A stretch of DNA of 64,000 nucleotides from the NCBI RefSeq assembly GCF_056712565.1, contig NZ_CM160072.1. One strand, 5' to 3'. Below are positions 32,301 to 35,300 of the stretch, one piece after another. Every line of letters begins with the position of its first letter. The first letter of the stretch is position 1. A program made the position numbers.

Positions 32301-35300
32301 CTACAGTCTTCGCTATTTTTACGTCTGCTGGGCGAGAAAGGGGTGAACGCACTTGAACGCCTGATGGGATTGATTCTGGTGATGATGGCAACTCAGATGT
32401 TCCTCGACGGCATTCGAATGTGGATGAAGGGGTAACAAGGAGAGTTTTTCGAAAAGAGCCCGGTAGCGTCAGAACTACCGGGTAAACAAACTTAACTCAA
32501 CAGCTGGAACGCAATCATCCCAACGATGGCACCGACAGTGCCGAGGATGGTTTCCATCATGGTCCAGGTTTTAAGCGTTTCGGCTTCGGTCGCGCCGGTA
32601 AATTTACCGAACAACCAGAAACCCGCGTCGTTAACGTGGCTGACAACAATCGAACCACCGGCGATACAAATCGACAGCGCCGCCATTTGCGCACCGGAGT
32701 AGTTCAGTTGTTCAATGACCGGCATCACCAGTCCCACCGCCGTTAAACAGGCAACGGTGGCAGAACCCTGAATGATGCGCACTGCAGCTGCCAGCACGAA
32801 GCAGGTGATGGCAATCGGCAGGCCCATGCCGGTTAACGCTTCGCCCAGTGCCGGACCGACACCAGAGTCAACCAGCACCTGTTTGAACACGCCGCCCGCA
32901 CCAATCACCAGCAGAATGATCCCCGCCGGTTGCAGCGCGTGACCGCAAATCTCCATCACTTTGTCTTTTGGCATACCCTGACGCATTGCCAGACCGTAAA
33001 TCGCCACCAGGCAAGCAACCAGAATCGCGGTAAACGGATGGCCGATAAACTCAAACCATTCGTAAGCGGTAGAACCTTCTGGCACAAAACGCGCGGCAAT
33101 GGTTTTCAGCCCCACCAGCACCAGTGGCAACAGGATCAGCGACAGGCTGAATCCGAAGGACGGCATTTTGCCTTCGCCGAGATGCGGTTCGCTGATGTCG
33201 TCAGGAATATGCAACTCCACGTAGCGGCTGATGAAATTACCCCACAGCGGCCCGGCAATAATCATTCCCGGAATTGCCGCGCACAGGCCAATCAGGATCA
33301 TCCAGCCAAAGTCGGCGTTCATCTGCGATGCCAGCAGCATTGGCGCTGGCCCAGGCACCAGGAACGCAGCCGCTGCCGCCACGCCTGCAAATAATGGGAT
33401 TACCAGCTTCACCAGGTTCGTGCCGGTGTGGCGCGCCATTGAGAAAGCAACGCTAATCAGCAGAACAATCGCCACTTCAAAGAACAGCGGTAGCGCACAA
33501 ACCAGCCCCGCAAGGCCGATAGCATAATGCACGCGGCTGTGACCGAAGGATTTGAGCATTTTGACGGCAATCTGATCGACCGCGCCGGTTTCATGTAAGA
33601 TCTTACCAAACATGGCTCCCAGGGCGACAACCACCGCCAGGAAGCCGAGGGTGCCTCCCATCCCTTTTTCCATCGTCGCTGCGATTTTATCGAGCGGCAT
33701 ACCAGAAAAAAGGCCAGCCCCCATGGACACCACCATTAAAGCCAGGAAAGCGTGCATACGCGCCTTCATGACTAAAAACAGCAGCAGTAAAACAGACCCT
33801 ACTGCTGTTAAAACAAGCGTTAATGTAGTCACTACTTATTTGCCTTTTTTAATAACCTCAATGGTGCTTGCCACAACACCTTCCAGCGGTTGATCAATAT
33901 CCACCACCAGTACATCGGTTTCGTCCGCACCCGGCTCCTGCAGCGTTTCAAACTGCGTCACCAGCATTTGGGTTTTAAAGAAATGGCCTTTGCGCGCTTT
34001 CAGGCGGCTTTCAATCACATCAAAATCGCCTTTCAGGTAGATGAAAGAGAGATTAGGATTACCTTCACGCAGCAAGTCGCGATAGTGTTTTTTCAGTGCA
34101 GAACAGACGATCAGCGATACTTTATTGGTGCGCTGCATAGCAAACGCGGCGTCGTTCAGCGCCTGCAACCACGGTTTGCGATCGTCGTCATTCAGCGGTT
34201 CGCCAGACGCCATTTTTTCGATATTGCAGCGCGGATGGAGGAAATCGCCATCAAGAAACGCGGCATGAAGTTGATGCGCCACTTCACTGGCGACCGCAGA
34301 TTTGCCGCTGCCCGATACGCCCATCAAGACGTAAATGTGGTGATCATGGTTAGTCGTGCTCAAAGTGGTGCCCCCACAATACAAGAATTAAAAATGTTAC
34401 GGGTAACTGTTATCGGTAACATTGTCCAGCCGGACAATATCAGAAGCAATATCCATCCGTGCCTTAAGTGTATAAGTGTGAGCTACTTCAAATTTGTAGG
34501 CTTAAATAGATCCGCCCGGTGACAAGGTGAAACCTAAATCTAACATTTTCGGTATCACAGATTCGCCACGAATACGCGCCAGCAGGCGCTCAGCGCCAAT
34601 GCTGCCCATCCGCTCACGCGGCGTCAGCACACTCGCTAGCCGTGGCTCCATCACCTGACCAATGTCATGACCGTGGAAACCGGCAATCGCCATATCGTCA
34701 GGAACTTTCAACCCCAAACGCTGACATTCAAACGCCGCGCCGACCGCCAGGTCATCATTAGTACAGAACACGCCATCCAGCTGCGGATATTCCCGCCGCG
34801 CCTGGCGAATCAGTTCAATACCGGAAGAGTAAGAAGAAGATTGCTCAACCATCACGCTATACGGCACCAGGCCTGCATCCAGCATCGCCTGTTCGTATCC
34901 CTTCTGTTTGATGATAGTACGTTCGTCGAGGCGTGCGCCGAGATAGGCAATGTGACGATGCCCGCGAGCAATAATGGCGGTGGTCATCTGGCGTGCCGCT
35001 TCAAAGTTATCAAAACCGACGGCGATATCGAGGCACGGCGACTTACTGTCCATCAACTCCACCACCGGAATCCCCGCCACTTCAATCATCTTTAAGGTAC
35101 GCGGCGTGTGGGTACGTTCGGTGAGGATCAGGCCGTCGATATTCCATGAGAGCATTGATTCGAGGCGTTCTTGCTCCATTTCCGGTTTATAACCGTAGTG
35201 CGCCAGCATGGTTTGATAACCGTGCGCGTCGGTGACGCTTTCGATTCCGCGTAATACTTCCGCGAAAACCTGGTTGGTGAGAGAAGGTAACAGGACGCCA

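What the first reader, a model, noticed from the sequence alone, without database searches (positions are those of the whole stretch)
33836..34424. gntK appears to start at TTG, just downstream of tandem GntR operators
No in-frame ATG exists at the gntK N-terminus. The codon giving the MSTTNHDHH start is TTG, preceded by a GGGGG Shine-Dalgarno-like run. Two GntR-box palindromes (ATGTTACGGGTAAC and TGTTATCGGTAACAT) lie 30-60 nt upstream. A non-ATG start plus close operator placement suggests tight translational and transcriptional control of gluconate kinase.
Basis: seen in the sequence. Interest (0 to 1): 0.25.

Follow-up and report, generated by a model that had tools for sequence, protein, structure and literature searches.

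The report
gntK TTG start and GntR operators
This is the well-known E. coli gluconate kinase gene gntK, which does start at a TTG codon and sits behind two overlapping GntR repressor sites on its promoter, so it is correctly read but ordinary.

Summary
The window is E. coli, with gntR-gntK-gntU on the minus strand. gntK runs 34363..33836 (175 aa) and begins with TTG (34363-34361), 7 nt after a GGGGG Shine-Dalgarno run. RefSeq and the K-12 record (b3437) annotate the same start.

Comparison of 80 Enterobacteriaceae species supports it:
- The homologous codon is TTG in 77 and ATG in 3.
- Third-position variability begins at the very next codon.
- The upstream leader varies in length by non-multiples of 3.
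- 36 of the 81 sequences compared (80 species plus the window) have no other in-frame start available.

Two GntR boxes (34394-34409 and 34407-34422) overlap by 3 bp, with centres 13 bp apart, and are almost invariant in all 80 species. This arrangement at gntKU is already published.

Phylogenetic footprinting suggests a promoter: -35 TTGCTT, -10 GACAAT, predicted +1 at 34413, and a CRP site at -71.5. On this model the boxes cover about -9 to +20. They would block RNA polymerase, and their distance to the start codon would just reflect a ~50-nt leader.

"Tight translational control" is not shown. TTG lowers translation efficiency, but nothing suggests it is regulated. Verdict: already known, low interest.

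The parts
33836..34363 (-). gntK coding sequence (175 aa plus stop), gluconate kinase
   Evidence: ORF and translation. RefSeq and K-12 b3437 annotate the same 528-nt gene. 174/175 residues match PDB 1KNQ, the difference being R46C.
34361..34363 (-). TTG initiation codon of gntK
   Evidence: The homologous codon is TTG in 77 and ATG in 3 of 80 species. Codon periodicity starts at the next codon. 36 of 81 loci have no other in-frame start upstream.
34371..34375 (-). Shine-Dalgarno GGGGG, with a 7-nt spacer to the TTG
   Evidence: Sequence. A purine run is conserved at -11..-8, and G at -10 is invariant. The duplex with the 16S 3' end is -8.4 kcal/mol, against about 0 for the rival starts.
34382..34384 (-). 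Upstream in-frame TTG, the rejected rival start
   Evidence: It has no Shine-Dalgarno. It is not conserved, and the leader length varies by non-multiples of 3.
34394..34409 (.). Proximal GntR box (minus strand CAGTTACCCGTAACAT), predicted +5..+20
   Evidence: Pattern search. Nearly invariant in 80/80 species.
34407..34422 (.). Distal GntR box (minus strand ATGTTACCGATAACAG), predicted -9..+7. It overlaps the proximal box by 3 bp, with centres 13 bp apart.
   Evidence: Pattern search. Conservation. The 13-bp overlapping arrangement at gntKU is described in PMC4052901.
34421..34426 (-). Inferred -10 hexamer GACAAT; its last two bases are the first two of the distal GntR box
   Evidence: GACAAT in 75, and GAGAAT or GAAAAT in 6, of 81 sequences. 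This is an inference from footprinting; no transcription-start data were found.
34444..34449 (-). Inferred -35 hexamer TTGCTT
   Evidence: TTGCTT in 77 of 81 sequences, exactly 17 nt from the -10. The spacer varies in sequence but not in length.
34413..34413 (-). Predicted transcription start (A; plus or minus 1-2 nt), giving a 50-nt 5' UTR
   Evidence: Inferred from the position of the -10 hexamer and from the CRP site falling at -71.5 or -82.5. Not measured.
34477..34492 (.). CRP-like site (minus strand TTTGAAGTAGCTCACA)
   Evidence: 1 mismatch to TGTGA-N6-TCACA, which alone is not above chance in the window. It is conserved in all 81 sequences. Its centre is at -71.5 in 75 and at -82.5 in 6, where an 11-bp insertion keeps the helical phase.
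34502..35497 (-). gntR, the LacI-family gluconate repressor gene directly upstream
   Evidence: ORF and annotation.
32492..33832 (-). gntU, the low-affinity gluconate transporter gene. Its GTG start lies 3 nt after the gntK stop.
   Evidence: ORF and annotation. The start is GTG or TTG at the 69 loci scored automatically, abutting or overlapping the gntK stop; at 9 more loci it reads as GTG by eye, and none shows ATG.

Best explanation
This is the gntKU promoter and the 5' end of gntK in the E. coli GntI gluconate system.

Transcription (inferred):
- A weak sigma-70 promoter (-35 TTGCTT, 17-nt spacer, -10 GACAAT) would start transcription near 34413.
- It would depend on a class I CRP site centred at -71.5.

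Repression:
- GntR is encoded just upstream. It binds two overlapping palindromes that cover about -9 to +20.
- Binding is taken from the literature. The positions relative to +1 are inferred here.
- In that position GntR would occlude RNA polymerase until gluconate releases it.

Translation:
- The roughly 50-nt leader is unstructured.
- The ribosome is positioned by a G-rich Shine-Dalgarno 7 nt before a TTG codon, which is the true initiation codon. This is shown by comparative evidence; the protein N-terminus was not checked here.
- The TTG sets a constitutively lower initiation rate than ATG would. It is not a regulatory switch.
- gntU follows immediately and is translationally coupled. It also uses a non-ATG (GTG) start.
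For: Annotation: PGAP and the curated K-12 record place the gntK start at this TTG, and K-12 is identical from the operators into the gene.

Comparative evidence from 80 species of more than 20 genera:
- The start codon is TTG in 77 and ATG in 3, with no Leu-synonymous variants such as CTG or TTA.
- Entropy by codon position is 0.17/0.09/0.66 for codons 2-13. It is 1.6/1.5/1.4 for the 36 nt upstream.
- The distance from the operators to the start ranges from 19 to 86 nt and is not in multiples of 3.
- 36 of 81 loci have no alternative in-frame start after the nearest upstream stop.

Shine-Dalgarno: the duplex with the 16S 3' end is -8.4 kcal/mol at this TTG, against +0.5 and +0.7 for the rival TTG and for ATG-14.

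Operators:
- This is the only high-quality adjacent pair in 64 kb.
- The pair is present in 80 of 80 species, and the 28-nt core is identical apart from one A/T position in 78 of 81 sequences.
- The literature reports functional overlapping sites 13 bp apart at gntKU.
- PgntK is strongly repressed by GntR.

Promoter: the -35, -10 and CRP elements are conserved, with fixed spacing and helical phase.

Population: 4838 of 5424 E. coli genomes are identical over the 90 nt from the operators to codon 10.
Against: - No direct measurement of the GntK N-terminus or of initiating ribosomes was found. gntK is absent from the held parts of the TetRP and N-terminomics supplements, some of which may be truncated, and no supplements are held for the two retapamulin/ribosome-profiling papers checked.
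- No transcription-start data were found, so the +1 and the operator positions relative to it are inferred.
- The consensus promoter scan did not call this promoter, because its hexamers are weak.
- The CRP-like match alone is not above chance in the window.
- The primary papers (Tong 1996, Izu 1997, Tsunedomi 2003a) are not in the held library.
Confidence: 0.93

Rival explanations
1. gntK starts at the upstream in-frame TTG (34384) and makes a 182-aa protein beginning MYCGGTTLSTTN...
For: The mechanical ORF list extends to this TTG. It lies in frame, 6 nt after the stop TAA at 34390-34388.
Against: - It has no Shine-Dalgarno (+0.5 kcal/mol).
- The seven extra codons are not conserved as codons. 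This stretch has indels that are not multiples of 3 and shows no periodicity.
- 36 of 81 orthologous loci have no upstream in-frame start at all.
- Three species have ATG at the downstream position.
Confidence: 0.02
2. Translation starts at the first in-frame ATG (codon 14, 34324-34322), and the TTG region is untranslated leader.
For: It is the only ATG near the 5' end.
Against: - Codons 2-13 evolve like coding sequence, with variation concentrated at third positions and the peptide STTNHDHH(I/V)Y conserved.
- There is no Shine-Dalgarno before it (+0.7 kcal/mol).
- Starting there would leave only 4 residues before the Walker A motif. The homologous kinases 3T61 and 4EUN align from query residues 12 and 7 and carry longer N-termini.
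Confidence: 0.02
3. The conserved TTG is a regulatory device. It would make GntK synthesis conditionally responsive, for example through IF3 discrimination or a structure that masks the Shine-Dalgarno.
For: - TTG is retained in 77 of 80 species even though synonymous sites in the same genes are close to saturated (third-position entropy about 0.93 bits, against 0.23 at start-codon position 1).
- gntU also never uses ATG.
- The paralogue idnK uses ATG with an AGGAG Shine-Dalgarno, so the TTG is specific to gntK.
- A 2024 study shows that non-ATG starts in E. coli sugar-utilisation regulators can be adaptive.
- In E. coli a small GUGG/CCAC hairpin can pair part of the Shine-Dalgarno (-5.6 kcal/mol).
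Against: - Conservation shows selection on expression level, not regulation.
- The leader folds worse than shuffled controls (z = +1.55).
- The mini-hairpin is weak and not conserved in register. Mean energy is -3.7 against -2.9 kcal/mol for shuffles over 39 distinct sequences.
- There is no Rfam match.
- No literature was found linking gntK translation to any regulator.
Confidence: 0.1

Closest known systems
E. coli K-12 gntRKU locus (b3438-b3437-b4476), the GntI gluconate system
   Same: The gene order is the same. The sequence is identical from the operators into gntK, with 3 differences in 261 nt, all further upstream. The annotated TTG start and the 175-aa product are the same.
   Different: The GntK protein here has Cys instead of Arg at residue 46. 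This position is variable between species: Ser in 54, Cys in 19 and Arg in 4 of 81.
Overlapping LacI-family operator pairs 13 bp apart (Ravcheev et al. 2014, PMC4052901; gntKU shown functional by Tsunedomi et al. 2003a)
   Same: There are two ATGTTA-N4-TAACAT-type palindromes with centres 13 bp apart, conserved across gamma-proteobacterial GntR regulons.
   Different: None found. This locus is the published example.
idnK (gntV), the thermosensitive gluconate kinase paralogue of the GntII system
   Same: It is a P-loop gluconokinase with the same LMGVSGSGK motif, and a GntR/IdnR-type box (ATGTTACGCATAACGT) lies upstream.
   Different: idnK starts with ATG behind an AGGAG Shine-Dalgarno, and its box lies about 100 nt upstream of the start. 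The TTG start is therefore a feature of the gntK lineage, not of the family.
lacI GTG start and other non-ATG starts in E. coli carbohydrate regulators (Nat Microbiol 2024, PMC11445065)
   Same: A conserved non-ATG start in a sugar-utilisation gene lowers its translation efficiency.
   Different: Those cases are regulator genes with a demonstrated fitness effect. gntK and gntU are an enzyme and a transporter, and no such test exists for them.

Membership tests
GntK, P-loop gluconate kinase (PDB 1KNQ) | Full-length sequence identity to the crystallised E. coli enzyme, including the Walker A motif GVSGSGKS | tested here: met
   174/175 residues identical over 1-175, E = 1.3e-114.
TTG-initiated bacterial gene | An in-frame TTG preceded by a Shine-Dalgarno at 5-9 nt | tested here: met
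   GGGGG with a 7-nt spacer. Duplex with the anti-Shine-Dalgarno is -8.4 kcal/mol.
TTG-initiated bacterial gene | The coding-type substitution pattern begins at that codon and not before it | tested here: met
   Entropy by codon position is 0.17/0.09/0.66 downstream and 1.6/1.5/1.4 upstream. The leader length varies by non-multiples of 3.
TTG-initiated bacterial gene | Orthologues substitute other initiation codons, not Leu synonyms, at the same position | tested here: met
   TTG in 77 and ATG in 3 of 80 species, with no CTN or TTA.
TTG-initiated bacterial gene | Direct evidence of initiation: a protein N-terminus or a peak of initiating ribosomes | not testable with these tools
   gntK is absent from the held parts of the TetRP and TRAINSPOTTER supplements. 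No supplements are held for the Ribo-RET paper or for a second retapamulin/ribosome-profiling paper (PMC7043885). The 1KNQ chain has the 175-aa sequence, but it is a recombinant protein.
GntR (LacI-family) operators of the gntKU promoter | Match to the palindrome ATGTTA-N4-TAACAT | tested here: met
   1 and 2 mismatches. This is the only adjacent pair in 64 kb, where 2.6 single matches are expected by chance.
GntR (LacI-family) operators of the gntKU promoter | Two overlapping sites with centres about 13 bp apart, conserved in orthologous regulons | tested here: met
   The centres are at 34401.5 and 34414.5. The pair is present in 80/80 species. This matches the description in PMC4052901.
GntR (LacI-family) operators of the gntKU promoter | Physical binding by GntR and release by gluconate | not testable with these tools
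   Literature only: Tsunedomi 2003a as cited in PMC4052901, and reporter repression in PMC13386637.
Class I CRP-dependent sigma-70 promoter | A CRP site centred near -61.5, -71.5, -82.5 or -92.5 relative to a mapped +1 | tested here: inconclusive
   The site is conserved and centred at -71.5 (75/81) or -82.5 (6/81) relative to the predicted +1. The +1 is inferred, not measured, and the motif match alone is at chance level in the window.

The most novel reading that the evidence does not exclude
The non-ATG starts of both cistrons are maintained by selection as a built-in translational throttle. gntK has TTG in 77 of 80 species. gntU has GTG or TTG at every locus scored and never ATG. The throttle could be sensitive to IF3 or to growth conditions. 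It would keep kinase and low-affinity transporter output low per transcript, with a fitness effect on gluconate use in the gut like that reported for the lacI GTG start.
Probability: 0.2. Interest if true: 0.3.

Novelty: already known. Interest (0 to 1): 0.08.

Why it matters
It matters little beyond confirming correct annotation. The TTG start, the 175-aa product and the overlapping GntR operators are all in the curated K-12 record or in the literature.

Three points add modest value:
- The TTG start is now supported by cross-genus evidence that does not depend on gene callers.
- The same data give a coherent promoter model in which the operators sit on the -10/+1 region.
- How two LacI-family dimers can occupy sites only 13 bp apart is still an open structural question, raised by Ravcheev et al. 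2014, and this locus is its type example.

Tried and rejected
- Primary papers: Tong 1996, Peekhaus & Conway 1998 and Tsunedomi 2003a are not in the held library. Izu 1997 was not looked up. What I say about these papers beyond the citations in PMC4052901 rests on memory.
- Direct initiation data: gntK does not appear in the held TetRP or TRAINSPOTTER supplements. No supplements are held for the Ribo-RET paper or for a second retapamulin/ribosome-profiling paper, PMC7043885.
- Transcription-start data: no entry near K-12 3577642, or near the equivalent older-version coordinate, in the held parts of the Cappable-seq or Kim 2012 supplements. The table of initially transcribed sequences that lists gntK is not held.
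- Promoter scan: the consensus scan found nothing on the minus strand. The promoter model therefore rests on footprinting.
- RNA-based control: the leader is less structured than shuffles (z = +1.55). A hairpin masking the Shine-Dalgarno is weak and inconsistent across 39 distinct sequences. There is no Rfam match.
- Alternative starts at TTG 34384 and at ATG codon 14 were both rejected.
- The literature searches combining gntK with TTG, and for gntKU, returned nothing on the start codon.

Full report
**What the window holds.** A 921-nt query around the finding matches 5424 of 5426 complete E. coli genomes. It is 100% identical to strains such as ATCC 11775 and NU14. The annotated features are gntR, gntK and gntU, all on the minus strand of the window. 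In window coordinates gntR is 35497..34502, gntK is 34363..33836 and gntU is 33832..32492.

**Check of the observation.** On the minus strand the region reads AATGTTACCGATAACAGTTACCCGTAACATTTTTAATTCTTGTATTGTGGGGGCACCACT-TTG-AGC-ACG-ACT-AAC-CAT-GAT-CAC-CAC.
- The TTG at 34363-34361 gives MSTTNHDHH.
- GGGGG lies at 34375-34371, 7 nt before the TTG.
- An in-frame stop (TAA, 34390-34388) closes the frame 27 nt upstream. The first in-frame ATG is codon 14, four residues before the Walker A motif.
- The two palindromes are at 34394-34409 and 34407-34422. They have 2 and 1 mismatches to ATGTTA-N4-TAACAT.
- In the whole 64-kb window the pattern has 7 matches at up to 2 mismatches, against 2.6 expected. 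Only here is there a match with 1 mismatch or fewer, and only here are two matches adjacent.
- The boxes overlap by 3 bp, with centres 13 bp apart. They lie 30-59 nt upstream of the TTG.

**Is the TTG the real start?** Annotation agrees. PGAP for ATCC 11775 and the curated K-12 record (b3437, NP_417894.2) both give a 528-nt gene starting at this TTG. K-12 is identical from the operators into the gene.

For evidence independent of gene callers I fetched the gntK locus from 80 species of Enterobacteriaceae. They cover more than 20 genera, and the protein is 90-99% identical to the query.
1. The homologous codon is TTG in 77 species. It is ATG in 3 (Buttiauxella, Yokenella, Trabulsiella). There is never a Leu-synonymous codon.
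2. Anchored on this codon, variability by codon position is 0.17/0.09/0.66 bits for codons 2-13 and 0.07/0.03/0.93 for codons 14-40. The 36 nt upstream give 1.61/1.47/1.40 with no periodicity. The only constrained upstream positions are a purine run at -11..-8 (G at -10 is invariant) and an invariant C at -2.
3. The distance from the operators to the start codon ranges from 19 to 86 nt and is not in multiples of three.
4. In 36 of 81 sequences there is no other ATG, GTG or TTG in frame between the nearest upstream stop and this codon.
5. Pairing with the 3' end of 16S rRNA is -8.4 kcal/mol upstream of this TTG. It is +0.5 and +0.7 kcal/mol upstream of TTG 34384 and of ATG-14.
6. The 175-aa form is the one crystallised as 1KNQ. 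The distant homologues 3T61 and 4EUN align from query residues 12 and 7 and have longer N-termini, so a start at Met14 is structurally implausible.

I found no direct N-terminal or initiation-profiling data for gntK. This is not surprising for a gluconate-induced gene.

**The operators and the promoter.** The 28-nt core ATGTTACCGATAAC(A/T)GTTACCCGTAACA is present upstream of gntK in all 80 species. It is identical apart from the one A/T position in 78 of 81 sequences.

Ravcheev et al. 2014 report overlapping LacI-family sites about 13 bp apart upstream of 110 operons. They cite gntKU of E. coli as the case where such an arrangement was shown to be functional (Tsunedomi 2003a). They also say it is conserved in more than half of GntR-regulated operons, and that it is hard to reconcile with known LacI-DNA structures. 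A 2026 synthetic-biology paper found PgntK strongly repressed by GntR and the tightest of three GntR promoters.

An alignment of 23 genera shows further conserved blocks separated by variable sequence of constant length. In all 81 sequences a TTGCTT-type hexamer (77/81 exact) lies exactly 17 nt from GACAAT (75/81), and the last two bases of GACAAT begin the distal box. A TTTGA-N6-TCACA site is centred at -71.5 in 75 sequences, relative to the A at 34413. In the other 6 it is centred at -82.5, because an 11-bp insertion preserves the helical phase.

From this I infer a CRP-dependent class I promoter with +1 near 34413 and a 50-nt leader, with the GntR boxes covering about -9..+7 and +5..+20. 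This part is inference:
- The consensus promoter scan did not call the promoter.
- The CRP-like motif alone is at chance frequency in the window.
- I found no transcription-start data.

From memory, the model fits what Izu et al. 1997 reported for gntKU: regulation by cAMP-CRP and two GntR elements at the promoter. I could not read that paper.

**Translational control.**
- UUG starts about 3% of E. coli genes. The canonical non-AUG codons initiate at 10-100% of AUG, or 8-12-fold lower by another source. The TTG should therefore lower GntK output per transcript.
- Its retention in 77 of 80 species, while synonymous sites in the same gene are near saturation, argues for selection on the codon.
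- At the 69 loci my pattern scored, gntU starts with GTG (50) or TTG (19), abutting or overlapping the gntK stop. Nine further loci read as GTG by eye, two unusual junctions were not resolved, and none shows ATG.
- The paralogue idnK in K-12 starts with ATG behind an AGGAG Shine-Dalgarno.
- Nothing points to regulated translation. The leader folds less well than shuffled controls (z = +1.55). A small GUGG/CCAC hairpin over part of the Shine-Dalgarno is weak and is not conserved across 39 distinct sequences (-3.7 against -2.9 kcal/mol for shuffles). No Rfam family matches.

A fixed, selected throttle is possible but untested.

**Comparison with what is known, and verdict.** Every element of the finding is already in the curated K-12 annotation or in the literature. 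Across E. coli, 4838 of 5424 genomes are identical over the 90 nt from the operators to codon 10. The finding is a correct reading of a textbook locus. Novelty: already known. Interest: low.

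Noticed in passing
window 33830-33838 (minus strand): gntU starts with GTG, 3 nt after the gntK stop (AAA TAA GTA GTG). At the 69 loci scored automatically the gntU start is GTG (50) or TTG (19), and it often overlaps the gntK stop (GTGA or TAGTG). Nine more loci read as GTG by eye and none shows ATG. Both cistrons of the operon therefore avoid ATG and look translationally coupled.
   Followed up: partly
window 33807-33772 (minus strand), inside the first ~20 codons of gntU: A hairpin resembling an intrinsic terminator (CAGCAGTAGGGTCTGTTTTACTGCTG followed by CTGTTTTTAG) lies within the gntU coding sequence. The stem and T-run are kept in most genera (-14 to -21 kcal/mol) but are disrupted in Salmonella (about -9.5). 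From memory, it probably corresponds to the internal attenuator reported for gntKU, which lowers gntU relative to gntK.
   Followed up: partly
window 34226-34228 (minus strand), gntK codon 46: This strain has Cys (TGC) where K-12 and PDB 1KNQ have Arg. The position is variable between species: Ser in 54, Cys in 19, Arg in 4, Ala in 3 and Lys in 1 of 81. It is most likely a neutral polymorphism.
   Followed up: partly
window 34365 (minus strand), position -2 relative to the TTG: C at -2 is invariant in all 81 sequences, and T at -1 is present in 64 of 81, although the rest of the spacer between the Shine-Dalgarno and the start varies freely. No consistent pairing partner or motif explains this.
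   Followed up: no
window 34493-34504 (minus strand): The gntR stop codon (34504-34502) lies only about 10 nt from the CRP site of the gntK promoter, and the scan found no terminator-like hairpin between them. gntR transcripts may therefore read into the gntKU promoter and operator region.
   Followed up: no
L031, L069 and other Kluyvera-type loci (6 of 81), between the CRP site and the -35: An 11-bp insertion, a duplication of ATTCACTT-like sequence, moves the CRP site from -71.5 to -82.5. This is exactly one helical turn, as expected if the face of the helix matters for class I activation.
   Followed up: partly
L027, L034, L035, L037, L038, L041, L046, L052, L054, L058, L066 (Klebsiella/Raoultella group): The leader between the operators and the start codon is 73-86 nt, against 19-44 nt elsewhere, because of an inserted GC-rich segment. 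Its function, if any, is unknown.
   Followed up: no
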